Shown here piece after piece: positions 3,042-47,166 of a stretch of DNA of 64,000 nt. This DNA comes from Flexilinea sp. (GTDB taxonomy: Bacteria > Bacteroidota > Bacteroidia > Bacteroidales > Paludibacteraceae), in NCBI GenBank assembly GCA_963638355.1, contig CAVHRT010000001.1, positions 4,495-68,494 on the forward strand, written 5' to 3'. Below the pieces are notes generated by a model that saw only the letters and a program-made list of their open reading frames with translations, was not told where the DNA came from and did no database searches. The position numbers and the translations under genes are program-made. Position 1 is the first letter of the stretch, and each line of letters begins with the position of its first letter.

Positions 3042-5492
3042 TTATCGCATGTCGATTCGCTTCAGTTCCACTTCGCCATTTTCCAACAAGACGATTATCG
3101 AAGTCAGTTCTGCGGCATTCGGGCGAAGGTCGGTCTGTTTTGGCTCGGTTGGCGTGAAGGCGAACCAAGGATATGCTGAGCGTGTTTGCACGGCAGCGCA
3201 TGGCCGAAAATCGTCGATGTTTACGCCAATTTTTGATGTTTCGCTAGTTAATTTTTGGTGATTTTCGAAATAGCGGCCCTCTTTGTCAGTTAAGATGATG
3301 CGAATTTGCGCTTCATCGTCAGTTTTTGCCGATAAAATGGCGATTTTGCAACTATCTAACTGATGTTGGCACAGGTCGATTTGCATGCCAGCGCCACCTT
3401 CGTAGTTTTCTTCGGTTTTCAGACGAATGGCATCGGGCAGATAGTCGATTTTTACGCCATTTCGCCAAATTATTTCGGTTGCGTCAATATCATTTTCGGC
3501 ATTAAACGCGATGTGTTTGCCAACAATTGTGGTGTAGCAGTTTAGTCCCGTATAGTCCCACTGATGCGGCAAACCTGCGCAATCATCGGGAAAAGTGCGC
3601 ACATTGCCATCGGTGTAGAGTGCGATGTTGTACTCAAAAATGCCGTTGGTTGTGGCGTTGGCGGGCAGCGTGGCGCTCCAGTTTATCGCATCTTTTTGGT
3701 CGAATTTCATGCGAATGGGGCGTCCCCATTTCATCTGACCAAACAGAACGATAGAATCGATTTCTTGTGGAGCAATGGCTTGAATATCAATTTGTTGCTC
3801 TTTGCCTGCTTGCCAACTTTTGGCGGCGTGGTTTGTGAGGTAGGGCTTGTCGCAATCGGTGAGCAGTTGGAAACTCTCAAAAAGTCCCAAATTGCCCATT
3901 TCATCGAGCGATTTTGCATCGATGCTGTCATTCAAAATCAGGTAAGTGCCGGGCGAAACCTTGAACGAATTGCGGTCGATTTGGCTTTCGCCGCGGACGT
4001 TCACGAGGCGACATTTTTCGTCGAGGTCGGGCAGCGACAGTTGCATGGTGTGGCGGTCGTTTTTGATGACTGCCACGGTGCGTTGTGGCGAATTGTGCTG
4101 ACGGAATGGATTGTTCACCACCATGGCATCGGGATAGACCTCGAGCCGCCAAGCACCATCTTTTATCTTGTCGATGAAATAGGCTCCGCTGCCGTCGTAT
4201 TTTACTACGGGCGATGAGCCGCACCCTGCAACTTGCGCCAATTCATCGAGGTTTTTGGGCTGTTCGTCGGTCGAGTTTGAATATGCAAAAATGGTGTCGC
4301 AGTTGAGCAGACTCAGATTTTTTGTGGCATCGACTTTGAAATTTTCGAATGCTGAATTTTCGGGATAATCGCCAAAACTTTCACCCCTTTTTATGTGGCG
4401 GAATGCCTCGGCTGCAATGCGGTAACTGATGGCTTTTTGCGGCGTGTAGGCGATGTTCAGAAAGTGTGTGTTATAATCGGTATTGGCGTGCGCAATCACT
4501 AGCGGATCGTAGGCAAACATAGTGGCCCATTGGAAACCCGCCTCGCGAAACGACCGTGCCATGGCTGGATACATGTAACTGTCCAAAATGTCGGCGGCAT
4601 CGAACTCGTAGACCACGCGTGCTTTGTTGGCAAATTTTTTCTTATCGACAAAAGGAATGGTGTAATGCTCTACCAGTGGAAGAAAATTCTCGGTGCGAGC
4701 GTGCCCACTCACCAGTCCGCTTGGATACCACTGAAAAGTTACGCCATCGATTTTTGCTGCCAAATAACTGTCGATCATCGAGGCATTTTCGGCTACGTTG
4801 TAGAAAATTGGCTTTTGGCAACCCGCTTTTCGTAGTGCTTTCACCATTCGGTTGACGTATGCTGTGAGCTGACGGGTGCGGTCGGGTGCGGTTTGGCTTG
4901 GCTCGTTGTTCACCTCTATCGCCACAATGTTGGGGTCGGCGGCGTAGGTGTAGCCCGTGTACGGATTGCGATGTTGCATCAGTTGGGTGAGGTAGCGTTC
5001 GTGTGCAGCCACGGTCGCTTCGTCCCAAGTGGCTTCGTTTTTCGCGATTTTTGCCGAAAATCCTGGCAGTGAGCGGTCGTCGGGTTCGGGCCAGCCATTG
5101 CCCCAAAAGGCTATGCCAGTGATGAGCGTTTTAGCCCCGCGTTCGGCAAATTTTGCAATGGTATAATCGAGTAAATCTAAGTGGTCGTTGGTGAGCAAAT
5201 TGCCCTTTTCATCGGAAATTTCCACGTCCCACACATGCACCCGAAAGGCGTTTGCGCCAAGGCGAGTCATGTGGTACACGTCGCGGTCGATGGCGGCTTT
5301 GAAGTTGGCTCCAACACGCTGATGCATGCGGTAGCCATGAGCAAATGGCATGCAATAGTTGAATCCGAAAAATGCGCACTCTTGTCCGTTGGCATCGCGT
5401 AAAACGCCGTTTTTATCGACCGAATAGTTTTGCGCCACGCTTGCCGAAAGTGCCAGCCCTGCGAGCAGAAATGCCAGAAAAGTTCGTTTCAT
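3042..5492 (-). CDS. secreted clan GH-A (TIM-barrel) glycoside hydrolase, probable beta-galactosidase/exo-galactanase partner of GH53
   Basis: 816 aa with a signal peptide MKRTFLAFLLAGLALSASVAQ. The motifs ANAFRVHVWD and IVAIEVNNEPS (NEP acid/base motif) are followed by a long C-terminal extension. The exact GH family (GH5-like or GH147-like) cannot be decided by eye. Confidence 0.7.
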   Translation of the reverse strand: MKRTFLAFLLAGLALSASVAQNYSVDKNGVLRDANGQECAFFGFNYCMPFAHGYRMHQRVGANFKAAIDRDVYHMTRLGANAFRVHVWDVEISDEKGNLLTNDHLDLLDYTIAKFAERGAKTLITGIAFWGNGWPEPDDRSLPGFSAKIAKNEATWDEATVAAHERYLTQLMQHRNPYTGYTYAADPNIVAIEVNNEPSQTAPDRTRQLTAYVNRMVKALRKAGCQKPIFYNVAENASMIDSYLAAKIDGVTFQWYPSGLVSGHARTENFLPLVEHYTIPFVDKKKFANKARVVYEFDAADILDSYMYPAMARSFREAGFQWATMFAYDPLVIAHANTDYNTHFLNIAYTPQKAISYRIAAEAFRHIKRGESFGDYPENSAFENFKVDATKNLSLLNCDTIFAYSNSTDEQPKNLDELAQVAGCGSSPVVKYDGSGAYFIDKIKDGAWRLEVYPDAMVVNNPFRQHNSPQRTVAVIKNDRHTMQLSLPDLDEKCRLVNVRGESQIDRNSFKVSPGTYLILNDSIDAKSLDEMGNLGLFESFQLLTDCDKPYLTNHAAKSWQAGKEQQIDIQAIAPQEIDSIVLFGQMKWGRPIRMKFDQKDAINWSATLPANATTNGIFEYNIALYTDGNVRTFPDDCAGLPHQWDYTGLNCYTTIVGKHIAFNAENDIDATEIIWRNGVKIDYLPDAIRLKTEENYEGGAGMQIDLCQHQLDSCKIAILSAKTDDEAQIRIILTDKEGRYFENHQKLTSETSKIGVNIDDFRPCAAVQTRSAYPWFAFTPTEPKQTDLRPNAAELTSIIVLLENGEVELKRIDMR

Positions 5493-5817: not shown

Positions 5818-6885
5818 ATGAAAACACTTTCAGGTCTCGATTCGGAGCGGTTCGAAATGCTGCTCGATGGCAAAAAAACGGAACTTACGGTGCTGAAAAA
5901 TGCCCATGGTTGCGAGGTGGCGCTACTCAACTACGGCGCGCGCATTGTGTCGCTGCTGGTGCCCGACAAAAATGGCAAAATGGTCGATGTGGTCACTGGT
6001 CACGAGAGCATTGCCGACTATCTGACAACCGAAGAGACCTATTTTGGCGCCATCTGCGGACGTTATGCAAACCGCATTGCGCGCGGGCATTTTTCGCTCG
6101 ATGGAAAAGATTACAATCTTGCGATAAACAATGGACCAAATTCGTTGCACGGCGGCGTGAAAGGTTTCACTTTTCGTGTTTGGGATGTGGAGAAATTGTC
6201 CGATGAAATGGCGGTTTTTCGACTCACTGCTGCCGATGGCGAGGAGGGTTATCCCGGCAATTTGCAAGTGGAAGTGCGCTACACTTTGACCGACGAAAAC
6301 ATCGTGAAAATCGACTACCGCGCCACTACCGACAAACCAACGGTTTTGAACTTGACAAATCACACCTATTTCAACCTTTCGGGCGAGGGCGAACCCACTG
6401 CCGAAGATCATATCGTTACCATTCATGCCGATGAATTTTTGCCGATGGACGACACTTCCATTCCGTACGGAAAACCTGAAAAAGTGGCGGATTCACCGAT
6501 GGATTTTCGCACACCGCATGTGGTTGGCGAGCGCATCGAGGCGGACTATGAGCAGTTGCACTTCGGTCGTGGCTACGATCACACCTTTATCATCAAAAAA
6601 AATGCCGATGAAATGGCGGTTGCGGTAGAATGCGTATCGCCAAAAACGGGCGTAAAACTGACTGTTGTGAGCGATCAACCGGGCGTGCAGTTCTATTCGG
6701 CAAACTGGATGACGGGCAACATGCTGGGCAAACATGGTCATCGCTACCCAATGCGCGCTGCACTGTGTTTCGAGACGCAACATTTCCCCGATAGCCCGAA
6801 CAAACCAGAATATCCGAGCGTGGTTTTGCGCCCAGGCGAAGTCTTCGAGAGCAAAACTGAATTCCGCTTTTCATTATCAATCTGA
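5818..6885 (+). CDS. galM: aldose 1-epimerase (galactose mutarotase)
   Basis: Motifs YFGAICGRYANRIA, NSLHGG and CFETQHFPDSPN. The start is moved from the track's 5674 to ATG 5818 (MKTLSGLD...) because the upstream 48 codons look like non-coding leader. Confidence 0.88.
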   Translation: MKTLSGLDSERFEMLLDGKKTELTVLKNAHGCEVALLNYGARIVSLLVPDKNGKMVDVVTGHESIADYLTTEETYFGAICGRYANRIARGHFSLDGKDYNLAINNGPNSLHGGVKGFTFRVWDVEKLSDEMAVFRLTAADGEEGYPGNLQVEVRYTLTDENIVKIDYRATTDKPTVLNLTNHTYFNLSGEGEPTAEDHIVTIHADEFLPMDDTSIPYGKPEKVADSPMDFRTPHVVGERIEADYEQLHFGRGYDHTFIIKKNADEMAVAVECVSPKTGVKLTVVSDQPGVQFYSANWMTGNMLGKHGHRYPMRAALCFETQHFPDSPNKPEYPSVVLRPGEVFESKTEFRFSLSI

Positions 6886-6912: not shown

Positions 6913-8073
6913 ATGGAAATCGATTATGTACAAAGCCGTTTTTTGAAACATTTCGACGGCAAAGAGGGCAGCGTTTATGCATCGCCCGGACGAATTAACT
7001 TGATTGGCGAACACACCGATTACAACGGCGGATTTGTCTTCCCCGGTGCCATCGACAAAGGCATCGTGTGTGAAATTCGCCCCAACGGCACCAACACGGT
7101 GATGTGCTATTCCATCGACCTGAAAGACCGCGTGGAGTTCAAAGTGGACGACCCCGAAGGTCCGCGGGCTAGCTGGGCGCGCTATATCTACGGCGTGGTG
7201 CAAGAGATGAGAAAACGCGGTGTCGATGTGAAAGGCTTCAACACGGCATTTGCTGGCGATGTGCCGCTGGGTGCGGGATTGTCGTCGTCGGCTGCGCTCG
7301 AGAGTTGTTTTGCTTTTGCGTTGAACGATCTTTTCGGCGAAAATCGTGTGTCGAAATGGGATCTTGTGCTGGCAGGACAGGCCACCGAGCATAACTATTG
7401 CGGTGTGAATTGTGGCATCATGGATCAATTTGCAAGTGTCTTCGGACAAAAAGGCAAACTGATGCGTCTCGACTGTCGCAGTCGCGAGTTCGAGTATTTC
7501 CCATTCGATCCGAAAGACTACAAACTCGTTTTGGTCGATTCGGTGGTGAAACACGAACTCTCTGGTTCGCCATACAACGATCGTCGCCGTTCGTGCGAGA
7601 ATGTGGTGTCGGCAATTGTGGCAAAATTCCCCGATAAAACCGTGGAAACGCTGCGCGATGCCGACTGGCAAATGCTCGATGCTGTGAAAAACGAAGTGAG
7701 TGCCGAAGATTTGAAACGCGCCACCTTCGTTTTGGGCGAAAAAGACCGCGTGCTGGCCGTTTGCGATGCGTTGAACCGCGGCGATTACGAAACCGTAGGT
7801 CAGAAAATGTACGAAACGCACCATGGCTTGAGTGCCGACTACGAGGTTTCGTGCGAGGAACTCGACTTCTTGAACGATGTGGCAAAAGCCGATGGCGTTA
7901 CGGGCAGTCGCATTATGGGCGGCGGCTTTGGCGGTTGCACCATCAATTTGGTGAAAGACGAAATCTACGACCATTTTGTGGCCGATGTCAAAGAAAAATA
8001 CAAAGCAAAATACGGAAAAGAGCCAAAAATCTACGATGTTGTCATCAGCGATGGCTCACGCAAAATTTGCTAA
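6913..8073 (+). CDS. galK: galactokinase
   Basis: GRINLIGEHTDYNGG is the galactokinase signature, GAGLSSSAAL is the GHMP kinase motif, and GGGFGGC is also present. Confidence 0.95.
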   Translation: MEIDYVQSRFLKHFDGKEGSVYASPGRINLIGEHTDYNGGFVFPGAIDKGIVCEIRPNGTNTVMCYSIDLKDRVEFKVDDPEGPRASWARYIYGVVQEMRKRGVDVKGFNTAFAGDVPLGAGLSSSAALESCFAFALNDLFGENRVSKWDLVLAGQATEHNYCGVNCGIMDQFASVFGQKGKLMRLDCRSREFEYFPFDPKDYKLVLVDSVVKHELSGSPYNDRRRSCENVVSAIVAKFPDKTVETLRDADWQMLDAVKNEVSAEDLKRATFVLGEKDRVLAVCDALNRGDYETVGQKMYETHHGLSADYEVSCEELDFLNDVAKADGVTGSRIMGGGFGGCTINLVKDEIYDHFVADVKEKYKAKYGKEPKIYDVVISDGSRKIC

Positions 8074-8100
8074 AAACCGCCATTTCATCGGAAAAAATCA

Positions 8101-8134
8101 GTGGTTCAGTGTCGCGGCATTGAACCACTTTTTT
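8101..8134 (+). terminator. rho-independent terminator of galK
   Basis: A perfect 8-bp stem gtggttca/tgaaccac with a 12-nt loop is followed by T6. Confidence 0.65.
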
Positions 8135-9921: not shown

Positions 9922-9984
9922 CTTGTTTAGATTGAGTCTAAATAAGCAATCGGTGAATTCTTCCGATGAAATGGCGTGTTTTTT
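9922..9984 (-). repeat. intergenic repeat element, copy 1 (hairpin module + CGCCATTTCATCGG box), inverted relative to the copy at 41629
   Basis: 9922-9947 is the exact reverse complement of 41659-41684 (26 nt). The box ccgatgaaatggcg lies 15 nt away, the same spacing as in the other copy. Confidence 0.65.
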
Positions 9985-10074
9985 AATTTTTTGCGAAACG
10001 GATTTGTTACTGATTTAGTAAATTTTAACAAGTCGTTTTAGAGCCATAAATCGCCATATCATAATTCTAAATTC

Positions 10075-22645: not shown

Positions 22646-25447
22646 CTATCCGTGTGCTTCGAGCCAATTTTGACCGATGCCGATGTCTACTTTCAGCGGA
22701 ATTTGCAGCGGATAGGCGCCTTCCATCTCTTCGCGGACAAGGTTTTTCACGCGTTCAATCTCATCGTTTGGCACATTGAAATTCAACTCGTCGTGCACCT
22801 GTAGAATCATTTGCGTCTTCAGCCCTTCGCGCTCTAGGCGGTCGGCTATGCGCACCATGGCAATTTTTATGATGTCGGCTGCTGAGCCTTGAATCGGTGC
22901 ATTTATGGCATTGCGTTCGGCAAAACCGCGCACTGTGGCGTTGTGCGAATTGATATCTGGCAGAAAGCGTTTGCGGTGAAAAATGGTCTCGACAAAACCC
23001 TGCTTGTGCGCTTGTGCAATGGCACGATCCATGTAGGCTTTCACCTGCGGAAATGTGGCGAAATAGCCATCGATCAACTCTTTGGCTTCAGCACGCGGAA
23101 TGCCCAATCGCTCCGAAAGTCCGAAGGTGGAAATGCCGTAGATGATGCCGAAATTGGCAGTTTTGGCCTTGCGACGCATGTCGGAGGTTACCTCTTCAAT
23201 TGGCACATGGTAGATGTTGGCAGCCGTGGCGGCATGAATGTCGTGGTCGGCACGGAAGGCGGCAAGCATGTTTTCGTCGCCGCTCAAGTGCGCCATTATG
23301 CGCAGTTCTACCTGCGAATAGTCGGCACTCAGGAACACGCAACCTTGCTCGGCGATGAACGCTCGACGAATCTCTTTGCCCTGCTCGTCGCGAACGGGAA
23401 TGTTCTGCAGATTTGGGTTGCTCGAACTCAATCGGCCCGTGGCGGTAACCGTTTGGTTGAACGAGGTGTGTACTTTTCCCGTCTCGGGATTGATGAGTGC
23501 TGGCAGCGCATCAATGTAGGTCGAGAGCAGTTTTTTCAGGCCGCGATAATCGAGAATTTTTCCAACAATCGGGTGTTTGCCGCGCAGTGCCTCGAGCGTC
23601 TCCTCATCGGTAACATATTGTCCTGTCTTGGTTTTCTTGGCTTTCTCTACTATTTTCAGGCGGTCGAAAAGTAACTCGCCAATCTGTTTTGGCGAACTTA
23701 CATTGATGGGACAATCGGCCATTTGCTTTATTTCGCGTTCGATGTTTTGCAGCGTGGCGGTCATGGTTTCCGACGATTGCGCTAGTGCAAAATCGTCGAT
23801 TAAAACGCCATTTTTCTCCATTTTTGCCAACACGCGAACTAGCGGCATTTCGATGTCGTAGAAGAGGTGCTCGAGTTGATTTTCAGCGATTTTATCGACT
23901 AAAATCTGTTTCAATTGCAGTGTGATGTCGGCATCTTCGGCGGCGTATTCGGCAATTTTTGGCACAGGCACGCAGTCCATGGTCAGCTGATTTTTGCCTT
24001 TTGCGCCAATCAGTTCTTCGATGTGAATGGTGCGGTAGTGCAGCATTATTTCGGCCATGTAGTCCATGCCGTGGCGCAGTTCGGGATTTAGCAGATAGTG
24101 CGCCACCATGGTGTCGAACAGTCGTCCCTGAACGGTGATGCCGTAGCGGTCGAGTATCAGCAGGTCGAATTTGACGTTTTGCCCGATTTTATCGATGTTT
24201 TTTGCCTCATAAATGGGACGGAAACGCTCTAAGATTTTCTGCGCTTCGGTGCGATTTTGCGGCAGCGGCACATAGAATGCTTTGTGCGCCTTCACGGCAA
24301 ACGATAAGCCCACCAAATTAGCGCGGAAAATATCGATCGAAGTAGTTTCGGTGTCGAAACAGATTTCGCTCGATGCCGATAAAATGCCGATTAAATCGTC
24401 GATTTCGGCATCGGTTTGAATGGTTTTGTAGTCGTGAGCAATGGTCGCCACGCTGTCGAATGTCTGCACTTCGGTTTGTTGTGCTTCAGAAACTGAATTT
24501 TCGCCCATTTCATCGGCAAAAAGTGAGCCTTGAGCAGTGTCTTTTGTCTTCGATTTTATCGGCGAAATTGGCGCACTCTCGTTGCCGAGTAGTTTGTTCA
24601 GTTGACCACGAAATTCCAATTCGGTGAAAAGTGCGATGAGTGCCTCGCGATCGGGTTCTTTGCGGCGCAATTCTTCTTCGTTGAACTCAATTGGCACATC
24701 GGTTTTGATGGTCGCAAGGAAGCGCGAAAACTCGATTTTATCGCGATTTTCTTCTATTTTTGTCTTCAATGCGCCCTTCAGTTGGTCTGTGTGCTGCAGT
24801 AGATTTTCGATGCTACCGAAGTCGTTGAGCAGTTTCACCGCAGTTTTTTCGCCCACGCCGGGACAGCCCGGAATGTTGTCGGCCGTGTCGCCCATCAGTC
24901 CCAGCAGATCGATGACCTGCTCCACGCGCTGAAGTCCCCATTTTTCAAGTACTTCAGGCATGCCGAGCGTGTCGAAACCATTGCCGCCAAATTTCGGTTT
25001 GTAGATGAACGAATGCTCCGAAACTAACTGCCCGTAATCCTTATCGGAAGTCATCATGTAGGTGTCAAAACCTTGATTTTCGGCCATTTTTGCGAGCGTT
25101 CCAACCACATCATCGGCCTCGAAACCAGCCACTTGCACCACTGGAATGCGATATGCCTCGACCATCTGTTTGATGATTGGCACCGATTGGCGAATGACTT
25201 CAGGCGTCTCTTCGCGCTGCGCCTTGTATTGCGCGTAGGCCTCGTGGCGGAAAGTCGGTCCCGAAGGGTCGAAACAGACCGCAATGTGCGTTGGATTTTC
25301 GCGATTAAGCACATCTTGAAGCGTGTTCAAAAAACCGTAAATAGCCGATGTGTTCAGCCCTTTCGAGTTGGTGCGCGGATTTTTGATGAACGCATAGTAG
25401 GCGCGATAAATCATCGCATAAGCATCGATAAGAAAAAGACGATTCAT
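22646..25447 (-). CDS. polA: DNA polymerase I
   Basis: 933 aa. A 5'-nuclease N-terminus (MNRLFLIDAYAMIYRAYYAF) is followed by 3'-5' exonuclease and polymerase motifs (SADYSQVELRIMAH, RRKAKTANFGIIYG, QVHDEL). Confidence 0.97.
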   Translation of the reverse strand: MNRLFLIDAYAMIYRAYYAFIKNPRTNSKGLNTSAIYGFLNTLQDVLNRENPTHIAVCFDPSGPTFRHEAYAQYKAQREETPEVIRQSVPIIKQMVEAYRIPVVQVAGFEADDVVGTLAKMAENQGFDTYMMTSDKDYGQLVSEHSFIYKPKFGGNGFDTLGMPEVLEKWGLQRVEQVIDLLGLMGDTADNIPGCPGVGEKTAVKLLNDFGSIENLLQHTDQLKGALKTKIEENRDKIEFSRFLATIKTDVPIEFNEEELRRKEPDREALIALFTELEFRGQLNKLLGNESAPISPIKSKTKDTAQGSLFADEMGENSVSEAQQTEVQTFDSVATIAHDYKTIQTDAEIDDLIGILSASSEICFDTETTSIDIFRANLVGLSFAVKAHKAFYVPLPQNRTEAQKILERFRPIYEAKNIDKIGQNVKFDLLILDRYGITVQGRLFDTMVAHYLLNPELRHGMDYMAEIMLHYRTIHIEELIGAKGKNQLTMDCVPVPKIAEYAAEDADITLQLKQILVDKIAENQLEHLFYDIEMPLVRVLAKMEKNGVLIDDFALAQSSETMTATLQNIEREIKQMADCPINVSSPKQIGELLFDRLKIVEKAKKTKTGQYVTDEETLEALRGKHPIVGKILDYRGLKKLLSTYIDALPALINPETGKVHTSFNQTVTATGRLSSSNPNLQNIPVRDEQGKEIRRAFIAEQGCVFLSADYSQVELRIMAHLSGDENMLAAFRADHDIHAATAANIYHVPIEEVTSDMRRKAKTANFGIIYGISTFGLSERLGIPRAEAKELIDGYFATFPQVKAYMDRAIAQAHKQGFVETIFHRKRFLPDINSHNATVRGFAERNAINAPIQGSAADIIKIAMVRIADRLEREGLKTQMILQVHDELNFNVPNDEIERVKNLVREEMEGAYPLQIPLKVDIGIGQNWLEAHG

Positions 25448-27777: not shown

Positions 27778-28335
27778 TTACAAATTCAGTGTCTTCACTA
27801 CGCGGCATGGATTGCCAACGGCTATCGAGTTGTCGGGAATGTCGCGAACCACTACCGAGCCAGCGCCAATGGTGCAATTGTTGCCAATGGTTACGCCGGG
27901 CAAAATGGTTACCGAGCCGCCAATCCAGCAGTTGCGACCAATGGTTACGGGTTTTGCCCACTCTTGGCGCGTGTTGCGTTCGATGGGAATTGTGCTATGG
28001 CAAGCAGTGTAGATGCTCACATTTGGCCCGATGAAAGCGTCGTCGCCAATGCGCACTTCGGCCTCGTCGAGCACTGTGAAACGGAAGTTGATGAACACGC
28101 GATGCCCCAAATGTATGTGGCTGCCGTAGTCGCATAGGAATGGTTGCAGAATGGTGCAATCGTCGTGAAAAGTGCCCAACAATTGCTGTAGAATCTGGTG
28201 CAGTTCGGCGGTTTGGTTGGGCTGCGTGTTGTTGTAACGCCACAGCGCATCTTTGCACGCTCTGATTTCGCAGAGCAACTCTTCGTCGCAGGCATCGTAG
28301 ATTTGCCCAGCGAGCATTTTCTCTTTTTCAGTCAT
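27778..28335 (-). CDS. sugar (maltose/galactoside-type) O-acetyltransferase
   Basis: 185 aa. The Mac N-terminal motif (MLAGQIYDACDEEL...) is followed by hexapeptide repeats (IGDDAFIGPNVSI..., IGRNCWIGGSVTILPGVTIGNNCTIGAGSVV). Confidence 0.85.
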   Translation of the reverse strand: MTEKEKMLAGQIYDACDEELLCEIRACKDALWRYNNTQPNQTAELHQILQQLLGTFHDDCTILQPFLCDYGSHIHLGHRVFINFRFTVLDEAEVRIGDDAFIGPNVSIYTACHSTIPIERNTRQEWAKPVTIGRNCWIGGSVTILPGVTIGNNCTIGAGSVVVRDIPDNSIAVGNPCRVVKTLNL

Positions 28336-28418
28336 TTTGGGTAGATTTTTTAGATGATAGAATAAAGATGGCAGACTTTTTGCTTCCCATTTTTTTGATT
28401 GGGTTGCGAAAAGGGCGG

Positions 28419-28600: not shown

Positions 28601-29263
28601 ATGAAACGCATTCGCATACTCTGTTCGTTGTTGCTTTTGAGCCTTTTCATCGGCATTTTTCAGGAGTCGGTCATGTCGTTTGTCGAAGGTTTTCAGCTGG
28701 GACTGAATGTCGCTGATTTCACCGAAAGCAATGGCATGGACGAGGACACTTTTGTGTCGCTCGATGTGAAACCCACTGCGCCGCAGTTGCAGCCAGAACT
28801 TTTGAACGCCAGCGACAGCACGCTAGTAGTGATGGCACCATCGACGGTGGCGGTGTCGCTCTTCTATCCGCACGGACAAATGCATCGCACCGCATTGCAG
28901 CAGGGCATCGCCATTTTTGGCACGGTGCTGAGTTTTGTGAGTGTCGGTATTTTCATCTACTTGATAGTGCTGTTGGTAAAAATCATTCTCTCGTTCCGCC
29001 GCGGGCAGATGTTCAACGAGCAGAATATTCGCCGAATAAACATCATTGGCATTGGATTTTTGGTGCTTGGCGTGCTGAATACGCTTTGGAGCGCGTTGAA
29101 TGTCTATCTGGCATCGAGTGTGGCAACGCTTCAAGGCTACGAATTTTCGTACGCCAAAGTGGTCGATTGGGACTACATCATCGTGGGATTTGTTATTTTG
29201 CTAATGAACGAGGTGCTACGCCTCGCCACCAACATGAAAAAGGAACAAGATTTGACCATCTAA
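28601..29263 (+). CDS. DUF2975-like membrane protein
   Basis: About 220 aa from ATG 28601 (MKRIRILCSLLLLSLFIG...), with 4 predicted TM helices. It lies immediately upstream of a small HTH regulator, which is the usual DUF2975 pairing. Confidence 0.55.
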   Translation: MKRIRILCSLLLLSLFIGIFQESVMSFVEGFQLGLNVADFTESNGMDEDTFVSLDVKPTAPQLQPELLNASDSTLVVMAPSTVAVSLFYPHGQMHRTALQQGIAIFGTVLSFVSVGIFIYLIVLLVKIILSFRRGQMFNEQNIRRINIIGIGFLVLGVLNTLWSALNVYLASSVATLQGYEFSYAKVVDWDYIIVGFVILLMNEVLRLATNMKKEQDLTI

Positions 29264-29287: not shown

Positions 29288-29503
29288 ATGCCGATAGTTG
29301 TGAATTTAGATGTGATGATGGCAAAGCGCAAAATGTCGCTCAACGAATTGTCGGAGCGGGTAGATGTTACGCCAGCCAACCTATCCATTTTGAAAACGGG
29401 CAAAGCCAAGGCCATTCGTTTCAGCACGCTCGAAGCCGTGTGCCGCGCCCTGAAGTGCCAGCCAGGCGACATTCTAGAATTTTCTGATGAAGAAAATAAG
29501 TAG
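29288..29503 (+). CDS. XRE-family helix-turn-helix transcriptional regulator (YozG-like)
   Basis: 71 aa: MPIVVNLDVMMAKRKMSLNELSERVDVTPANLSILKTGKAKAIRFSTLEAVCRALKCQPGDILEF. Confidence 0.85.
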   Translation: MPIVVNLDVMMAKRKMSLNELSERVDVTPANLSILKTGKAKAIRFSTLEAVCRALKCQPGDILEFSDEENK

Positions 29504-34000: not shown

Positions 34001-34110
34001 CAATTAAGAATTATGAATTAAGAATTAAGAACTGCCAACTGCAAAAGATGAAGATTCTGCGGTTCGACAGAATCTCCGCCCAAATTTTCAAATTTTCAAA
34101 TCTTCAAATG
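34001..34110 (-). repeat. composite intergenic repeat, copy 2 (inverted relative to 15099..15216)
   Basis: The order is (gaattaaga)n, then actgccaactgcaaaagatgaagattctgcggttcgacagaatctccgcc, then (caaattttcaaat)n. The core contains an 8-9-bp hairpin agattctg/cagaatct. Confidence 0.75.
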
Positions 34111-34168: not shown

Positions 34169-35506
34169 ATGTACGATTTCGCAATCATTGGTGGCGGTCC
34201 TGCGGGTTACACGGCTGCCGAACGCGCCTCGAAGGCTGGACTCAGCGTGGTGCTTTTCGAAAAAAATGCACTTGGCGGCGTTTGCCTCAACGAGGGTTGC
34301 ATTCCCACAAAAACGTTGCTCTATAGCGCAAAACTCTATCAAAATGCGCTCAATTCGGCAAAATATGGCATCTCGGTTGGAGATGTGTCGTTCGATTTCG
34401 CAAAAATCAGCGTGCGCAAAACCAAAGTGGTGCGTAAACTGAACGCTGGCATACGTGCAAAACTGCAAAATGTTACGGTTGTTTCGGGCGAGGCAACGCT
34501 GAAAAATGCCGATGCAATCGCCAAAATTGAATGTAACGGCGAATTTTACGAAGCCAAAAAAGTTTTGCTCTGTAATGGCTCGTCAGTTTTCATTCCGCCG
34601 ATAAAAGGCACTGAAAATGGTCAGTTTTGGACTAGTCGCGAGGCGTTGCAGACTACCGAAGTGCCCGAAAGCATCGTCATTGTCGGTGGTGGTGTCATCG
34701 GAATGGAGTTTGCCGCGCTCTTTTCGGCATTTGGCAGCAAAGTTTCGGTTGTGGAGATGGCTTCCGAAATTCTGCCTGGAATAGATGGCGAAATTGCCGC
34801 ACTTTTGCGTGTCGAATATGCCAAGCGTGGGGTCGAGTTTTACCTCGGTGCAAAGGTGCTTGAGTTGGACGATGGATGCGTAAAATTTGCCGATGAAATG
34901 GGCGAAAAGTCAATTTCTGCATCGCAAATTTTGCTGTGCGTTGGTCGCCGTCCAAATCTGCAAAATATCGACCTCGATGCGTTGCATTTGCAGTTGGCTG
35001 GTCGTGGTCTGAAAGTGGACGAACACATGCTCACCACCAATCCGATAATTTACGCTGCTGGCGACATCAATGGTGTGTCGATGTTGGCCCACACTGCCGT
35101 GCGCGAGGCCGAAGTGGCGGTGGCTCATCTGCTTGGCAACGACGACCGCATGCACTACGATGCCGTGCCTGGCGTGGTCTATACCAATCCCGAAGTGGCT
35201 GGCGTGGGCGCAACCGAACAGTCGCTGCAGCGCGCTGGCATTGCCTATTGGGCGAAAAAATTGCCGCTGGCATATTCAGGACGGTTTGTGTCTGAAAACG
35301 AAGGCGGCAACGGTCTTTGCAAACTTTTGTTCGACAACGAAAGTCACCTGATTGGCGCGCACATCATCGGAAATCCTGCGTCGGAACTGATTGCCACGGC
35401 TGCGCTCGCCATCGAACAGCACCTCACTGCCGACGAATTTAGCAGCATCATTTTCCCGCATCCATCAGTTGGCGAGATCCTGAAAGAAACCGTTTTTTCA
35501 AATTAA
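34169..35506 (+). CDS. lpdA: dihydrolipoyl dehydrogenase-family FAD/NAD(P) disulfide oxidoreductase
   Basis: IIGGGPAGYTAA, the redox CLNEGCIPTK motif, VGGGVIGMEFA, and the C-terminal dimerisation HPS.GE motif. Confidence 0.85.
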   Translation: MYDFAIIGGGPAGYTAAERASKAGLSVVLFEKNALGGVCLNEGCIPTKTLLYSAKLYQNALNSAKYGISVGDVSFDFAKISVRKTKVVRKLNAGIRAKLQNVTVVSGEATLKNADAIAKIECNGEFYEAKKVLLCNGSSVFIPPIKGTENGQFWTSREALQTTEVPESIVIVGGGVIGMEFAALFSAFGSKVSVVEMASEILPGIDGEIAALLRVEYAKRGVEFYLGAKVLELDDGCVKFADEMGEKSISASQILLCVGRRPNLQNIDLDALHLQLAGRGLKVDEHMLTTNPIIYAAGDINGVSMLAHTAVREAEVAVAHLLGNDDRMHYDAVPGVVYTNPEVAGVGATEQSLQRAGIAYWAKKLPLAYSGRFVSENEGGNGLCKLLFDNESHLIGAHIIGNPASELIATAALAIEQHLTADEFSSIIFPHPSVGEILKETVFSN

Positions 35507-37795: not shown

Positions 37796-38887
37796 TCAAC
37801 TTTTCCACCTAAAATCTCCAACCAATCCGCGCAGCGCAGAATAGACCACATAAACGGGATAGATTGCGCTCAAAGCGAGTGTGTGGCGCAGAAGTTTAGT
37901 TTGGTGTGTGAATGGCAGAAAAATCGCCAAAAATGCCGTATCTATCGCGAATTTTGCGCAAAAAGCAATGCAAAATGGCGTGAGCGTGGCAAAATGCAAA
38001 AAAATGCCGATGAAATCGAGCAAAATCAACGCAGAAAGTCCAAAAACCAAGCACGCCACGACGATGGTCGCTGGGTCGGTGTAACTGGCGGCTTTCGAGG
38101 TCCAGCGCGCCCGCTGATTTACAAAATCGTGCAGCGTGGTTTGCGGCTTGGTCGTTACCACAGTTTTTTCACTCTTCAAAAAGGCGATTTTACCGCCCAT
38201 TTTCTTCACTTCGTGCAGAAGAAAAACATCGTCGCCCGAAGGTTGTTCGGTGTGCAATGCGCTATGGCACTGCAGCCAAACGCTTTTTTTGAAAGCCAAA
38301 TTCGCACCATTGCACATCACTGGCGCGTGTGCGCCACAAGCCCCAGCTGTCGATGCAATGAGCGAAGCAAATTCCAACGCTTGCAGTTGCTGAAACAGCG
38401 TGCTGTCGTCGGTCATGCGCACTGCGCCAAGCAGCAAATCAGGCTCATTTTCGGCGAAATAATCGGAAATAATTTGCAGATGTTCGGCCTGCAGCGTGCA
38501 GTCGGCATCGGTGCAGACGATTATCTCATTTTTGGCGGCTAAAATGCCATCGCTGAGCGCACTTTTTTTGCCATTTCCTGATGCCAAAATGCAGCGCACA
38601 AAAGTGTGATTTTTGGCGAATTCATCGAGAATTTTTGCGGTGTCGTCGGTGGAGTGGTCGTCTACAAAAATTACCTCGAAATCGGTGTGCGTTTGTGCTT
38701 CGATCGACTGCAAAAGTGGCGGCAGATTTTCGGCTTCGTTTTTGCAGCAGACAACGAGCGAAATCAGCGATTTCATCGGCATTTTTTCGGTATAGCGCGG
38801 TGTGCGTTTCCAGCCGATGGCAAACACCAAAATCATGGCAGCGTAGAGCGCCAAAAAACAGTATGTGGCAATGGAAATGACGACCAT
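37796..38887 (-). CDS. family 2 glycosyltransferase (membrane-anchored)
   Basis: VVCCKNEAENLPPLLQSIEAQTHTDFEVIFVDDHSTD, a CTDADC (DxD-like) motif, and a C-terminal TM segment. The start is set at ATG 38887, overlapping the comF stop by 1 nt (TAATG). Confidence 0.8.
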   Translation of the reverse strand: MVVISIATYCFLALYAAMILVFAIGWKRTPRYTEKMPMKSLISLVVCCKNEAENLPPLLQSIEAQTHTDFEVIFVDDHSTDDTAKILDEFAKNHTFVRCILASGNGKKSALSDGILAAKNEIIVCTDADCTLQAEHLQIISDYFAENEPDLLLGAVRMTDDSTLFQQLQALEFASLIASTAGACGAHAPVMCNGANLAFKKSVWLQCHSALHTEQPSGDDVFLLHEVKKMGGKIAFLKSEKTVVTTKPQTTLHDFVNQRARWTSKAASYTDPATIVVACLVFGLSALILLDFIGIFLHFATLTPFCIAFCAKFAIDTAFLAIFLPFTHQTKLLRHTLALSAIYPVYVVYSALRGLVGDFRWKS

Positions 38888-41505: not shown

Positions 41506-41628
41506 AATAGGAATGATTTTTTTTAGTTTATCAAGTTTGTAAAGTTTCGTTCAAAATCCTCGATGAAATGATTTGTTAAGATGTATCAAATCGGTATCAA
41601 TTTTCTCTTTCAAAAAAAAATGAAAATT

Positions 41629-41684
41629 CCGCCATTTCATCGGAAAAAATCGCGGTTTGCTTATTTAGACTCAATCTAAACAAG
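41629..41684 (+). repeat. intergenic repeat element, copy 2 (CCGCCATTTCATCGG box + 15 nt + hairpin module)
   Basis: ccgccatttcatcggaaaaaatc is identical over 23 nt to 8077-8099. gcttatttagactcaatctaaacaag is the exact reverse complement of 9922-9947. Confidence 0.65.
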
Positions 41685-43882: not shown

Positions 43883-44884
43883 TCAGTTGTTGCGTTCAAG
43901 GGCAAAGTCGAGTAGCGCGGCCAGAGCATTGCGGGCATCGTTTTCGGAGAAAATGGCCAAACAATCGAGCGCTTTTGCCCGAAAATAGTCCATTTTTTTG
44001 TTGGCATAGTCGATGCCGCCATTTTGCAAAACGAATTGCTGAATCCAAGTGCCATTTTCGGCGATTTCATCGGCATTTTTTGCTATATCGACAATGCGTT
44101 TTTTCGCGGTTTCATCGGCATTTTTTATGGCTTGAATTATCGGTAAAGTGAATTTGCCTTCGCGCAGATCGTTGAGCGTGGGTTTGCCGATGTTGGCTTG
44201 CGGTGTGTAGTCGAAAATGTCGTCTTTTATCTGGAAACAGATGCCAAGATTTTCGCCAAAATGTTGCAGCGCATCAACTTTTTCGGGCGATGCTCCTGCC
44301 GACAGTGCGCCAGCCAAGGCACAATGCGCAAAAAGTGAGGCGGTTTTCAGGCGAATTATCTCGTAGTAGACCGATTCGTCGGCCAAAGTGAAGGCGTTTT
44401 GTTGTTGCAAAAGTTCGCCGCGCGTGGTATCTTTGCCCAGTTCCACAAGACAGCGCATCAAATCCATGCTTTCGGTGCGCGACATAAATCCCATCGACTT
44501 GGTGAGCAGATAGTCGCCTACGAGTACGGCCGTTTGGTTGCCAAAGCGCGCATTCACCGATGGGAGTCCGCGGCGTTGATCGGTGCAGTCCACCACATCG
44601 TCGTGGAGCAGGCTGGCGGTGTGCAGCACTTCGAACGAGGCTGCCGCCAAGTGGGTGCGAGCGTTTATCTGTCCTGCCACTTGTGCCGATAGCAGCGTGA
44701 GTGTGGGGCGCAGTTGTTTGCCTTTGCTTTTGGCTACATGGCTCAAGGCCGATTGCAACAGAGCATCGGGCGAGTCGAACGCAGTGTCGAGCAATGCCTC
44801 GAAACGCTGCCATTCGTCGGCTAGTGGTTTGCGTATTTCGTTCAAATCGGCCATTGGTGGCGGTAGAATTTTTTCAGAGTGCAA
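43883..44884 (-). CDS. ispB: polyprenyl (octaprenyl-type) diphosphate synthase
   Basis: LLHDDVVD (first DDxxD) and FQIKDDIFD (second DDxxD). An alternative start at 44854 (MADLNEI...) is possible. Confidence 0.85.
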   Translation of the reverse strand: MHSEKILPPPMADLNEIRKPLADEWQRFEALLDTAFDSPDALLQSALSHVAKSKGKQLRPTLTLLSAQVAGQINARTHLAAASFEVLHTASLLHDDVVDCTDQRRGLPSVNARFGNQTAVLVGDYLLTKSMGFMSRTESMDLMRCLVELGKDTTRGELLQQQNAFTLADESVYYEIIRLKTASLFAHCALAGALSAGASPEKVDALQHFGENLGICFQIKDDIFDYTPQANIGKPTLNDLREGKFTLPIIQAIKNADETAKKRIVDIAKNADEIAENGTWIQQFVLQNGGIDYANKKMDYFRAKALDCLAIFSENDARNALAALLDFALERNN

Positions 44885-46915: not shown

Positions 46916-47000
46916 TTTCAACCGATTTTGCGAAAAAAACTGTTGATAACTTTCCGAAAAATGACGAAAATCTGACGATTTTTGCCTTTCGAAAACGCTG

Positions 47001-47008
47001 CAAAGGTA
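47001..47008 (-). promoter_or_regulatory. candidate -7 promoter box (TACCTTTG on minus strand) for uvrB
   Basis: caaaggta on the + strand, 86 nt upstream of ATG 46915. Confidence 0.3.
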
Positions 47009-47166
47009 CAATTTTTCCGAAAATCCACCATTTTTCGGGCAAAAGTTATCACCGCGCAAAGTTCATAAGTTGTTGATAACTTGGCACTTTTGTCGATAAA
47101 GTGTGCATTTTGTGCAATTTTCGCATTTTTTTTCGAGAAATACACACTATATATGGAAAAAAGTGG

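What the first reader, a model, noticed from the sequence alone, without database searches (positions are those of the whole stretch)
34886..34908. 23-nt identical string shared by lpdA and polA coding sequences
TTTGCCGATGAAATGGGCGAAAA at 34886-34908 (lpdA, sense) is identical to the reverse complement of 24498-24520 (polA, also sense for that gene). Both encode F-A-D-E-M-G-E-(K/N). The positions have no obvious functional equivalence: one is in a linker of Pol I between the 5'-nuclease and 3'-5' exonuclease regions, the other is in the NAD domain of a flavoprotein. A 23-nt identity between unrelated genes cannot be explained by protein homology. It is the clearest single instance of the over-represented word behaving as a DNA-level element tolerated in frame.
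Basis: seen in the sequence. Interest (0 to 1): 0.6.

Follow-up and report, generated by a model that had tools for sequence, protein, structure and literature searches.

The report
Origin-domain DNA motif inside genes
The identical 23 bases in the DNA polymerase I and dihydrolipoyl dehydrogenase genes are two in-frame copies of a roughly 30-base DNA motif, of which this group of uncultured Bacteroidales keeps about 30 copies almost entirely in the chromosome stretch beside its centromere site (parS); this points to an undescribed chromosome-level binding site, not chance or an inserted element.

Summary
The 23-nt identity is real: 34886-34908 (+) matches 24498-24520 (-), and these are the only two copies in the 1.98-Mb genome. 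It is not an insertion. Ten related species carry the same stretch at the same codons of both genes with no length change.

Chance or codon bias is very unlikely. Codon bias is mild, and the 23-mer is a near-consensus copy of a ~33-nt motif family, G.AAAAAATGCCGATGAAATCGCCGAAAAT, an imperfect palindrome GCCGAT-GAA-ATCGGC with A/T flanks.

- A weight matrix trained only on other species finds 28 strong copies in this genome. 25 lie in four adjacent contigs (9% of the genome), 3 lie on contig C18, and a reversed control finds 0.
- That domain holds the genome's only parS sites (after mnmG/gidA) and its only parB.
- Copies occur in four reading frames and in spacers.
- Inside polA and lpdA they are among the most invariant DNA across ten species.
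- The same 20-mer (DEMGEN) arose independently in uvrC of another lineage.

An outer clade of the genus showed no copies in the one genome stretch tested.

Most likely these are cis-acting sites for an unknown origin-domain DNA-binding factor. Function is inferred, not shown. Selection on point mutations versus short-patch conversion is unresolved.

The parts
34880..34912 (+). Motif copy in lpdA (second copy of that gene). It contains the reported 23-mer at 34886-34908 and is read in frame as V-K-F-A-D-E-M-G-E-K-S.
   Evidence: PWM score 36.2 bits, rank 2 in the genome. Frame. Core CCGATGAAA and GGCGAAAA are among the 7 longest runs invariant in 10 species.
24494..24526 (-). Motif copy in the polA linker. 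It contains the reverse complement of the 23-mer at 24498-24520 and is read as S-L-F-A-D-E-M-G-E-N-S. It overlaps the QGSLF clamp-binding-like motif.
   Evidence: PWM 32.3 bits, rank 6. CTTTTTGCCGATGAAA is the second-longest invariant run in the 2.8-kb gene across 10 species. It folds as a 25-nt dyad at -9 kcal/mol, z -2.2.
22646..25447 (-). polA, DNA polymerase I, 933 aa.
   Evidence: Pfam 5_3_exonuc, DNA_pol_A_exo1 and DNA_pol_A on orthologues.
34169..35506 (+). lpdA-like pyridine nucleotide-disulfide oxidoreductase, 445 aa (dihydrolipoyl dehydrogenase by source names).
34499..34531 (+). First motif copy in lpdA (L-K-N-A-D-A-I-A-K-I). The core is degraded to CCGATGCAA in this genome and intact in relatives.
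   Evidence: PWM 31.4. Relatives carry CCGATGAAATCG 381 nt upstream of the second copy.
24377..24409 (+). Further motif-like copy inside polA, on the antisense strand (read A-E-I-D-D-L-I-G-I-L-S by the gene).
   Evidence: PWM 26.7.
44051..44083 (-). Consensus-perfect copy in ispB (A-K-N-A-D-E-I-A-E-N-G).
   Evidence: Best PWM score in the genome, 41.1. Absent at this site in G005, G007 and G003, present in G013 and G001.
44096..44128 (-). Second ispB copy, 45 nt from the first (I-K-N-A-D-E-T-A-K-K-R).
   Evidence: PWM 29.5. At this site G013, G005, G007 and G003 have unrelated sequence, so the copy arose by a clustered replacement.
37997..38029 (+). Copy on the antisense strand of the GT2 glycosyltransferase gene (gene reads L-I-L-L-D-F-I-G-I-F-L).
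   Evidence: PWM 35.3.
38757..38789 (-). Copy at the start of the GT2 gene, in a different frame (E-K-M-P-M-K-S-L-I-S).
   Evidence: PWM 34.2. Conserved in G001, G013, G004 and G007.
28631..28663 (-). Copy on the antisense strand of the DUF2975 gene.
   Evidence: PWM 31.6.
41621..41653 (-). Intergenic copy between recG and the orphan secreted-protein gene.
   Evidence: PWM 30.0. 23 nt identical to the copy at 8077-8099.
8069..8101 (-). Intergenic copy after the gene 6913-8070.
   Evidence: PWM 24.2. 21 nt identical to the galM copy at 6199-6219.
9953..9985 (+). Intergenic copy after the gene 8705-9859.
   Evidence: PWM 24.1.
6190..6222 (+). Copy in galM (E-K-L-S-D-E-M-A-V-F-R).
   Evidence: PWM 25.5.
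6595..6627 (+). Second copy in galM (K-K-N-A-D-E-M-A-V-A-V).
   Evidence: PWM 23.4.
5193..5225 (-). Copy in the gene 3045-5492 (V-E-I-S-D-E-K-G-N-L-L).
   Evidence: PWM 25.2.

Best explanation
The two 23-mers are in-frame copies of one DNA-level motif family of about 33 nt. The consensus is G.AAAAAA-TG-CCGATGAAA-TCGCCG-AAAAT, an imperfect palindrome GCCGAT-GAA-ATCGGC between A/T tracts. An inner clade of ten species of this uncultured Paludibacteraceae genus keeps about 30 copies. Almost all lie in the roughly 150-kb chromosome domain that begins at the parS sites behind mnmG/gidA and contains parB.

Shown:
- the family exists;
- it is restricted to that domain;
- it occurs in several frames, on both strands and in spacers;
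- the polA and lpdA copies are old and sit at orthologous sites without indels;
- these copies are among the most invariant DNA of their genes;
- in this species group both copies moved to the same more symmetric variant, (T)n-GCC-G-AT-GAA-AT-G-GGC-G-(A)n;
- uvrC of another lineage reached that same variant independently.

The identity is therefore convergence of two family members on one preferred sequence.

Inferred: the preferred sequence is kept because it is a cis-acting site for a sequence-specific, probably dimeric, DNA-binding factor that acts on the origin/parS-proximal domain. Known analogues are RacA-ram, RicO-ricS and MatP-matS. I put this functional part at about 40%. The site is placed in coding DNA where the encoded peptide (x-D-E-[IM]-[GA]-E-N, or F-I-G-I-F on the other strand) is tolerated. 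Point mutation under selection and short-patch templated conversion between copies may both supply the changes.
For: Family and domain restriction:
- The window's first 47 kb holds 15 copies of the core CCGATGAAA; the reversed control holds 0. The genome total is 70.
- The 15 regional copies share flanks. The 55 copies elsewhere show no shared flanks as a group, apart from a few on C2, C14, C18 and C50.
- A PWM trained only on G003, G004, G005, G007 and G013 gives 28 hits of at least 24 bits in G000. 25 lie on contigs C14, C50, C1 and C2 (9.0% of the genome), 3 on C18, and the reversed PWM gives 0. My binomial estimate is about 1e-23.
- These four contigs are contiguous on G001:C1.
- G001:C1 has 33 hits: 0 in 0-20 kb, 23 in 20-80 kb, 0 in 80-135 kb and 10 in 135-183 kb. 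The syntenic 60 kb of outer-clade G008 has 0.

Domain identity:
- The only parS-like sites in the genome are TGTTCCACGTGGAACA and TGTTCCATGTGGAACA. They begin directly after the mnmG/gidA stop codon on C50.
- The only ParB is at C2:272-556.
- GC skew changes sign near 20 kb of G001:C1.

DNA-level nature:
- Among the 33 best copies, 13 are sense x-D-E-x, 2 are sense P-M-K, 9 are antisense and 9 are intergenic.

Age and absence of insertion.

Constraint:
- In lpdA only 7 of 1327 9-nt windows are invariant in 10 species. CCGATGAAA, GGCGAAAA and TGCCGATG are among the 7 longest invariant runs.
- In polA, CTTTTTGCCGATGAAA (16 nt) is the second-longest invariant run, and it sits inside a hypervariable linker.

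Convergence:
- uvrC of G005, G007 and G003 has CCC GAT GAA ATG GGC GAA AAT (P-D-E-M-G-E-N). The other nine species of the genus aligned have a different peptide there, P-D-[FLS]-I-D-E-[KN] in eight of them.
- The changes in the G000 clade (lpdA ACC to GCC and AAC to ATG; polA ATC GGG CAA to ATG GGC GAA) raise the match to the family consensus and the dyad symmetry.

Known kinds of origin-domain motif: ram covers 25 regions from -412 to +200 kb (PMC4914108). ricS has nine sites within about 700 kb around oriC (bioRxiv 10.64898/2026.03.06.710092).
Against: - No binding protein is identified and no experiment is possible on this uncultured MAG.
- The palindrome is imperfect: only 9 of 71 training copies have CCGATGAAATCGG. 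Many copies have A-tracts on both sides, which is not symmetric.
- The core 10-mer is also moderately common (12-31 per genome) throughout the order, against 0-10 for a reversed control. Part of the raw word count therefore reflects general coding bias ([APST]-D-E-[IM] with common codons).
- A maximal-order Markov model does not single the word out genome-wide.
- The similarity downstream of the motif in this pair (TCA-xTT-TCT) is not explained by the family consensus. It may need a pair-specific conversion or chance.
- Concerted evolution by conversion alone could also keep a core invariant between species without any function.
- The position of oriC is inferred only from skew and from the parS/gidA/parB markers.
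Confidence: 0.68

Rival explanations
1. Neutral concerted evolution. The family is a functionless short dispersed repeat. Short-patch templated repair or ectopic gene conversion between nearby copies keeps it homogeneous and spreads it locally. polA and lpdA are identical because copies convert one another.
For: - The window holds many identities of 17-23 nt between family members: 8077/41629 at 23 nt, 38767/44061 at 21 nt, 6199/8072 at 21 nt and 37999/44062 at 20 nt.
- New copies appear as clustered multi-base replacements flanked by pre-existing similarity. The second ispB copy lies 45 nt from its likely template. uvrC changed TTx ATC GAy to GAA ATG GGC.
- Regional clustering fits conversion that depends on distance.
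- In the G000 clade both genes gained the rare Ser codon TCA at the same place.
Against: - It does not explain why only the parS-proximal domain has such a family. Other contigs show no comparable non-AT-rich family of their own.
- It does not explain why the family starts next to parS, with 0 hits in the 20 kb on the other side.
- The polA path is stepwise across lineages: ACC GCC, then ACC GCG, then ATC GGG, then ATG GGC. It was not one patch.
- No exact donor for the uvrC 20-mer was seen among the copies of that clade that I listed.
- RecA-type conversion normally needs longer homology than 13-20 nt (own knowledge).
Confidence: 0.2
2. One private ectopic conversion between polA and lpdA, which lie 10.4 kb apart in inverted orientation. 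It was seeded by an older chance similarity and has nothing to do with a wider family.
For: - The ancestral states were already 27/36 identical: polA TTT GCC GAT GAA ATC GGG CAA AAT GAG GTT TCG against lpdA TTT ACC GAT GAA AAC GGC GAA AAT CGA CTT TCG.
- In the G000/G001/G009 clade both carry ATG, GGC, GAA, TCA and TCx.
- The pair-specific downstream similarity is 16/18 beyond the family consensus.
Against: - The first 20 nt equal the family's preferred variant, which uvrC of another clade reached on its own.
- About 30 further copies exist.
- Both genes changed on the branch, so a donor had to drift first.
- Variable sites within the clade match between the two genes in 3 of 6 cases, close to the 2 expected.
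Confidence: 0.07
3. Chance coincidence helped by codon and amino-acid bias.
For: - Exact 23-mers between unrelated genes do occur by chance in this genome; there is one other.
- Across about 250,000 scanned windows some such pairs are expected.
- Conditioning on a striking match today also predicts less similar ancestors.
Against: - A score of 28 is expected about 0.04 times per genome, and far less often within 10 kb.
- Codon bias is mild and the shared Ser codons are the rarest.
- The sequence is a top-ranked member of a family with a domain-restricted distribution and zero control hits.
- The same 20-mer occurs in uvrC of other species.
Confidence: 0.02
4. In-frame insertion of a miniature mobile element, like Rickettsia palindromic elements or MITEs.
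For: The sequence is palindrome-like, flanked by A/T, present in many genes and read in frame.
Against: - No length difference separates orthologues with and without the sharpened motif in lpdA or uvrC. polA shows none among inner-clade species.
- The copies arise by replacement, not addition.
- There are no target duplications, and the length of about 30 nt is far below known elements.
Confidence: 0.02
5. Protein-level convergence. x-A-D-E-M-G-E-N is a short linear peptide motif selected in several proteins.
For: 13 of 24 coding copies are read as x-D-E-[IM]-x. Two of the three DEMGEN proteins are DNA-repair enzymes (PolA, UvrC).
Against: - The same DNA is read as M-P-M-K-S, as D-F-I-G-I-F and as A-I-S-S in other genes, and 9 copies are intergenic.
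- Synonymous positions are invariant.
- LpdA has no plausible shared partner with PolA and UvrC.
Confidence: 0.02

Closest known systems
Origin-domain protein-binding motif families: RacA-ram of Bacillus subtilis, RicO-ricS of Staphylococcus aureus (and, for the terminus, MatP-matS of E. coli)
   Same: A specific motif of 14-18 bp or more occurs in about 10-30 copies restricted to one chromosomal domain next to oriC/parS. It lies within genes as well as between them, works in either orientation and tends to dyad symmetry. ram covers 25 regions from -412 to +200 kb (PMC4914108). ricS has nine sites within about 700 kb around oriC.
   Different: - No binding protein is known here and the sequence is unrelated to ram, ricS or matS.
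- The domain is smaller, about 150 kb with two sub-clusters, and the density is higher, about one copy per 3-6 kb.
- The symmetry is imperfect.
- The family is confined to about ten species of one genus.
DNA uptake sequences (USS of Pasteurellaceae, DUS of Neisseriaceae)
   Same: A DNA word is kept for a DNA-level reason and accumulates inside coding regions in particular frames, at poorly conserved residues. It leaves a footprint of recurring peptides (Findlay and Redfield 2009, PMC2817400).
   Different: Uptake sequences number hundreds to thousands and are spread over the whole genome. Here there are about 30 copies, about 90% of them in 9% of the genome.
parS, the ParB centromere site
   Same: It is origin-proximal, palindromic and often sits inside or beside genes.
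   Different: The genome's true parS sites (TGTTCCACGTGGAACA, twice, after mnmG) lie elsewhere, on C50. The motif shares no more than TGAAA with them.
Templated mutation / short-patch ectopic gene conversion between imperfect repeats (quasi-palindrome and template-switch mutagenesis)
   Same: Clusters of substitutions turn an imperfect repeat into a perfect copy of a nearby sequence, as seen at the second ispB copy and perhaps in this pair.
   Different: Classical cases involve repeats tens to hundreds of bases apart. This pair lies 10.4 kb apart, and the uvrC case has no exact donor.
Rickettsia palindromic elements and other in-frame MITE insertions
   Same: Palindrome-like DNA is read through in frame in unrelated housekeeping genes.
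   Different: Those are insertions of 100-150 bp that lengthen the protein. Here nothing is inserted.

Membership tests
DNA uptake sequence (USS/DUS) | Hundreds to thousands of copies spread over the whole chromosome | tested here: not met
   28 copies of at least 24 bits, 25 of them in 9.0% of the genome. 55 stray cores elsewhere show no common flanks as a group.
DNA uptake sequence (USS/DUS) | Coding copies sit in preferred frames at poorly conserved residues | tested here: met
   13 of 24 coding copies are read x-D-E-[IM]. The copies lie in the polA linker and a variable stretch of lpdA (variable among the aligned orthologues).
DNA uptake sequence (USS/DUS) | Sequence-biased DNA uptake by a competence machinery | not testable with these tools
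   The organism is uncultured and no assay is available.
parS (ParB binding site) | 16-bp palindrome matching TGTTNCACGTGAAACA | tested here: not met
   Only two sites in the genome match, at C50:1863 and 46 nt downstream. The motif itself does not match.
Domain-specific chromosome-organiser sites (ram, ricS, matS type) | Specific motif confined to one macrodomain next to ori or ter | tested here: met
   Searches show the distribution. Searches give parS, gidA and parB as domain markers. One search shows the skew change.
Domain-specific chromosome-organiser sites (ram, ricS, matS type) | Dyad symmetry fitting a dimeric binder | tested here: inconclusive
   The consensus GCCGAT-GAA-ATCG(C/G)C is an imperfect palindrome. 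9 of 71 copies are perfect over 13 nt. The polA/lpdA variant is a 25-nt dyad. Many copies have asymmetric flanks.
Domain-specific chromosome-organiser sites (ram, ricS, matS type) | A cognate protein that binds the sites (ChIP, EMSA) | not testable with these tools
   The nearby HTH_26 gene was checked as a candidate. It is present in all 15 genomes of the genus, including the outer clade; the one outer-clade stretch tested had no copies. It is therefore not informative.
In-frame mobile mini-element (RPE/MITE) | Presence/absence length polymorphism against orthologues, with terminal repeats or target duplication | tested here: not met
   Codon alignments of polA, lpdA and uvrC show replacement without length change.
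Ectopic gene conversion / templated mutation | Clustered substitutions that all match another locus of the same genome | tested here: inconclusive
   Fits: the second ispB copy and the shared derived ATG/TCA codons of this pair. Does not fit: the stepwise polA series and the uvrC patch, which has no exact donor.
REP/BIME elements | Intergenic imperfect palindromes with a conserved GTAG head, associated with a RAYT transposase | tested here: not met
   73% of copies are inside genes and none has a GTAG head. A separate REP-like element, GTAGGGACGCGGCATGCCACGTCC, exists on other contigs.
Beta-clamp-binding motif (applies to the polA residues overlapping the copy) | Pentapeptide close to QL[SD]LF in an exposed segment | tested here: met
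   Q-x-S-L-F is present in all 18 polA orthologues aligned, across the order. Actual clamp binding was not tested. The consensus is recalled from the literature.

The most novel reading that the evidence does not exclude
The motif family is the set of cis-acting sites of a so far unknown, ParB-independent organiser of the origin-proximal chromosome domain. Its role could be anchoring, insulation or condensin guidance, in the manner of RacA-ram or RicO-ricS. It arose within one Paludibacteraceae genus. Selection for these sites has rewritten short stretches of housekeeping proteins (PolA, LpdA, UvrC, IspB, GalM, a GT2 transferase) and drove unrelated genes to identical 20-23-mers.
Probability: 0.35. 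Interest if true: 0.8.

Novelty: new variant of a known kind. Interest (0 to 1): 0.64.

Why it matters
If the reading is right, sequence alone has revealed a new centromere-like or origin-domain site family in the Bacteroidota, a phylum where chromosome organisation beyond ParABS is almost unstudied. The family is young: it was found in ten species and was absent from the one sister-clade stretch tested. Its birth, the gain and loss of sites, and its cost to proteins can therefore be followed step by step. It is also a clean natural example of DNA-level selection, or of conversion drive, forcing convergent peptides (DEMGEN, KNADEIAEN) into unrelated enzymes. That matters for anyone who reads short shared peptides as signs of homology or function. 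For annotation, it warns that 20-23-nt identities between unrelated genes can be real signals rather than assembly artefacts.

Tried and rejected
- **Chance plus codon bias.** Rejected on the codon table, the self-blast score tail, a codon-shuffle null (CCGATGAAATGG 13 against 4.8; 15-mer AAATGCCGATGAAAT 5 against 1.0) and the family evidence.
- **Insertion.** Rejected by the codon alignments.
- **Maximal-order Markov word statistics.** These did not flag the word. They are blind to a rare, long, regional motif.
- **Getting polA from the assemblies behind L244-L248.** This failed because the records are not held. The 10-kb flanks of L246 and L247 end about 40 nt short of the polA site.
- **Within-clade covariation between the two genes as a test of ongoing conversion.** 3 of 6 variable sites match, which is not informative.
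- **Rfam.** No family matched in the window.
- **RNA hairpin reading.** Only some variants fold better than shuffles. The consensus copy does not, with z -0.36.
- **HTH_26 regulator at 29288-29500 as candidate binder.** It is present in all 15 genomes of the genus, so it does not track the family.
- **GC skew inside the window.** This is ambiguous, because the sign change at 47 kb coincides with the giant gene.
- **DnaA-box-like cluster at 46941-47186.** TTGATAA words are very common in this genome's spacers, so I do not call it oriC.
- **Look-up of the motif among earlier findings by sequence.** Nothing was found.
Full report
**Observation.** The 23-mer TTTGCCGATGAAATGGGCGAAAA stands at 34886-34908 on the + strand. 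Its reverse complement stands at 24498-24520. These are the only two copies in the window, even allowing three mismatches, and the only two in the whole 1.98-Mb assembly.

Both copies are read in the sense frame. In DNA polymerase I (22646-25447, -) the reading is S-L-F-A-D-E-M-G-E-N-S-V-S. In a 445-aa flavoprotein (34169-35506, +) it is K-F-A-D-E-M-G-E-K-S-I-S. Sources name close relatives of the flavoprotein dihydrolipoyl dehydrogenase. The similarity continues to 34 nt with two mismatches. The organism is an uncultured Paludibacteraceae bacterium (Bacteroidales), with 48.8% G+C.

**Is it chance?** In a blastn comparison of the genome with itself, scores between non-repeated, unrelated sequences fall about 0.37-fold per unit: 3077 at 16, 25 at 21. 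A score of 28 is therefore expected about 0.04 times per genome, and far less often within 10 kb. One other exact 23-mer between unrelated genes does exist, so a bare 23-mer is not proof of anything.

Codon bias does not explain the match. The codons used have frequencies of .38-.59, and the shared serine codons TCA and TCT are the two rarest.05 and .06.

**Is it an insertion?** No. I fetched polA and lpdA from the other 14 species of the genus and from neighbouring families and made codon alignments.

- Ten species form an 'inner clade': G000, G001, G009, G002, G004, G006, G013, G003, G005 and G007. All carry CTT TTT GCC GAT GAA Axx Gxx xAA AAy at the same codons of polA. All carry AAA TTT [GA]CC GAT GAA Axx GGC GAA AAy at the same codons of lpdA. 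There is no length change among them.
- The five other species of the genus have different residues there: polA L-F-D-E-P.., lpdA F-A-T-S-E-G...
- Protein variants from the large protein collection show an intermediate polA lineage that still has F-A-D-E-I-G-Q-N-E-V-S-D. All close lpdA relatives have F-A-D-E-M-G-E-K.

The two stretches were therefore already 27/36 identical in the ancestor. Both changed in the G000/G001/G009 group: polA went ATC GGG CAA .. GAG to ATG GGC GAA .. TCA, and lpdA went ACC .. AAC .. CGA to GCC .. ATG .. TCA.

This pattern alone does not separate chance from conversion. Conditioning on a striking match today predicts less similar ancestors under either view.

**The turn: a regional motif family.** Listing every occurrence of the core showed that the 23-mer is one of many related sequences.

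- The first 47 kb of the window hold 15 copies of CCGATGAAA, against 0 of the reversed word. The genome total is 70.
- 15 of the 26 genome matches to TGCCGATGAAATGGCG with up to two mismatches lie on this one 69-kb contig, against 1 control match.
- The window has 44 exact repeats of 16 nt or more that are not AT-rich, where about 0.6 are expected. Most belong to this family. After a further filter, 22 of 41 repeat pairs were family members. Other large contigs have no such family of their own.
- The regional copies share long flanks. The 55 cores elsewhere show no shared flanks as a group, apart from a few on C2, C14, C18 and C50.
- The syntenic regions of six inner-clade relatives are equally rich, with 7-16 cores per 20-60 kb.

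From 71 copies taken only from G003, G004, G005, G007 and G013 I built a 33-column weight matrix. Its consensus is G.AAAAAA-TG-CCGATGAAA-TCGCCG-AAAAT, that is, an imperfect palindrome GCCGAT-GAA-ATCGGC between A/T tracts.

Scanning the whole G000 genome gives 28 hits of at least 24 bits. 25 lie on contigs C14, C50, C1 and C2 (9.0% of the genome), the other three lie within 1.3 kb on C18, and the reversed matrix gives no hit above 18 bits. My binomial estimate for 25 of 28 is about 1e-23. The lpdA copy ranks second in the genome at 36.2 bits and the polA copy sixth at 32.3 bits.

**Where the family sits.** By alignment to the 183-kb contig G001:C1, the four contigs are neighbours in the order C14-C50-C1-C2.

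- On G001:C1 there are 33 hits: none in the first 20 kb, 23 between 20.5 and 78.7 kb, none from 80 to 135 kb, and ten from 138 to 153 kb.
- The syntenic 60 kb of the outer-clade species G008 has none.
- The left edge of the family coincides with the only parS-like sites in the genome. TGTTCCACGTGGAACA begins directly after the stop codon of mnmG/gidA on C50, and TGTTCCATGTGGAACA follows 46 nt further on.
- The only ParB gene is at the start of C2.
- GC skew on G001:C1 changes from negative to positive at about 20 kb.

The window therefore lies in the parS/origin-proximal domain, and the family is a feature of that domain.

**DNA level, not peptide level.** Of the 33 best copies, 13 are read as x-D-E-[IM]-x in the sense frame. 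Two are read as P-M-K; one of these is the start of a GT2 transferase, M-P-M-K-S. Nine lie on the antisense strand and are read D-F-I-G-I-F or A-I-S-S. Nine are intergenic.

**Constraint.** In the ten-species nucleotide alignment of lpdA, only 7 of 1327 nine-base windows are invariant. The family core CCGATGAAA, the adjoining GGCGAAAA, and TGCCGATG of the gene's other copy are among the seven longest invariant runs.

In polA, CTTTTTGCCGATGAAA (16 nt) is the second-longest invariant run of the 2.8-kb gene, although it sits in a linker whose flanks are hypervariable. Part of the polA conservation is protein-level. Q-x-S-L-F is kept in all 18 orthologues and matches the clamp-binding consensus, which I recall from my own knowledge. 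That does not explain the invariant synonymous positions.

**Independent convergence.** In uvrC, on C50, the other nine species of the genus aligned have a different peptide at this site, P-D-[FLS]-I-D-E-[KN] in eight of them. G005, G007 and G003 instead have CCC GAT GAA ATG GGC GAA AAT, read P-D-E-M-G-E-N. This is the same 20-mer as in polA and lpdA of G000, in another gene and another lineage, again with no length change.

The two ispB copies show the same kind of in-place birth. The second copy replaces unrelated sequence seen in G013, G005, G007 and G003.

The shared variant is more symmetric than the average copy: (T)n GCC-G-AT GAA AT-G-GGC G (A)n. It folds at -7 to -9 kcal/mol with z about -2. 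The consensus copy does not fold better than shuffles.

**Explanation.** The identity is best read as two old family members that both moved to the same preferred form of the motif.

Why is that form preferred? The domain restriction, the onset at parS, the indifference to orientation, the partial dyad symmetry, the invariance between species and the repeated gain of sites all fit cis-acting sites for a sequence-specific DNA-binding factor of the origin domain. Known examples of this kind are RacA-ram, with 25 regions from -412 to +200 kb (PMC4914108), and RicO-ricS, with nine sites within about 700 kb around oriC. The footprint on proteins resembles that of uptake sequences (PMC2817400), but uptake sequences are spread genome-wide.

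This functional step is inference, and I put it at about 40%. No binder is known. A nearby HTH_26 gene is present in all 15 genomes of the genus, so it does not track the family.

**Main rival.** The main rival, at about 20%, is a functionless repeat kept alike by short-patch templated conversion between nearby copies. This fits the many 20-23-nt identities and the clustered replacements. It does not explain the tie to parS or the stepwise polA series. Conversion may well be the mutational route even if selection sets the target. In particular, the pair-specific similarity downstream of the motif (TCA xTT TCT, rare codons) may come from a private conversion or from chance.

**Verdict.** It is a new variant of a known kind of system: chromosome-domain-specific site families.

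Noticed in passing
Outside the window: genome contig C50:1863-1878 and about 1909-1924 (equivalent to G001:C1:22780 and 22826): These are the only parS-like sites in the genome. TGTTCCACGTGGAACA begins directly after the mnmG/gidA stop codon, and TGTTCCATGTGGAACA lies 46 nt downstream, overlapping the start of the next gene. The only ParB gene is at C2:272-556, right after the giant gene of this window.
   Followed up: partly
window 46941-47186 (uvrB to giant-gene spacer): Four DnaA-box-like words (TGTTGATAA, one mismatch from TGTGGATAA) lie within 250 bp. This is the only cluster of four within 600 bp in the genome at one mismatch or fewer. TTGATAA words are very common in this genome's spacers, so I do not call it oriC. 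On G001:C1, eight such boxes lie at 14.8-20.1 kb, where GC skew changes sign.
   Followed up: partly
window 24521-24535 (-), polA residues about 305-309: A Q-G-S-L-F motif lies just before, and overlaps, the motif copy. Q-x-S-L-F is conserved in all 18 polA orthologues across the order and matches the beta-clamp-binding pentapeptide consensus.
   Followed up: partly
window 24545-24565 (-), polA linker 46 nt upstream of the copy: G000 has TCG CCG ATA AAA TCG (S-P-I-K-S). G001 and the cluster representative have TCG CCG ATG AAA TCG (S-P-M-K-S). This is a further core of the family in another frame, inside a 5-residue segment that only this clade and an intermediate lineage possess.
   Followed up: partly
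Contig C50:3528-3548 (uvrC); L290, L289 and L291 in relatives: uvrC of G005, G007 and G003 carries the same 20-mer CCGATGAAATGGGCGAAAAT (P-D-E-M-G-E-N). G000 has CCC GAT TCC ATC GAT GAA AAT (P-D-S-I-D-E-N).
   Followed up: yes
Proteins P0013 (lpdA) and P0124-P0128 (polA): A lineage known only from short metagenome contigs looks mosaic. In both genes some segments are G000-like and others G004/G006-like. It is either a true intermediate, a recombinant, or an assembly chimera.
   Followed up: no
Contigs C4:8875, C4:12401, C4:19024 and C12:14477: A separate REP-like palindromic element, GTAGGGACGCGGCATGCCACGTCC(CTAC), occurs in several exact copies. It is unrelated to the motif family.
   Followed up: no
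L246:3287-3918 and L247:3176-3909 (G001-like strains), corresponding to about window 27900-28400: Close relatives carry a small two-gene insert (a 73-107-aa protein plus a PIN_3 toxin-like gene) between the DUF2851 and Mac-acetyltransferase genes. G000 lacks it.
   Followed up: no
window 15140-15189 and 34021-34070: A 50-nt exact inverted repeat lies in two spacers 19 kb apart. It is the longest short repeat of the region and is unrelated to the motif family.
   Followed up: no
Whole genome: TGCCGATG occurs 555 times against 143 in codon-shuffled genomes. CGATGCCGA is among the commonest 9-mers. I guess these come from D-A-D-G-type repeats in giant surface proteins, not from the motif family; I did not check this.
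   Followed up: no
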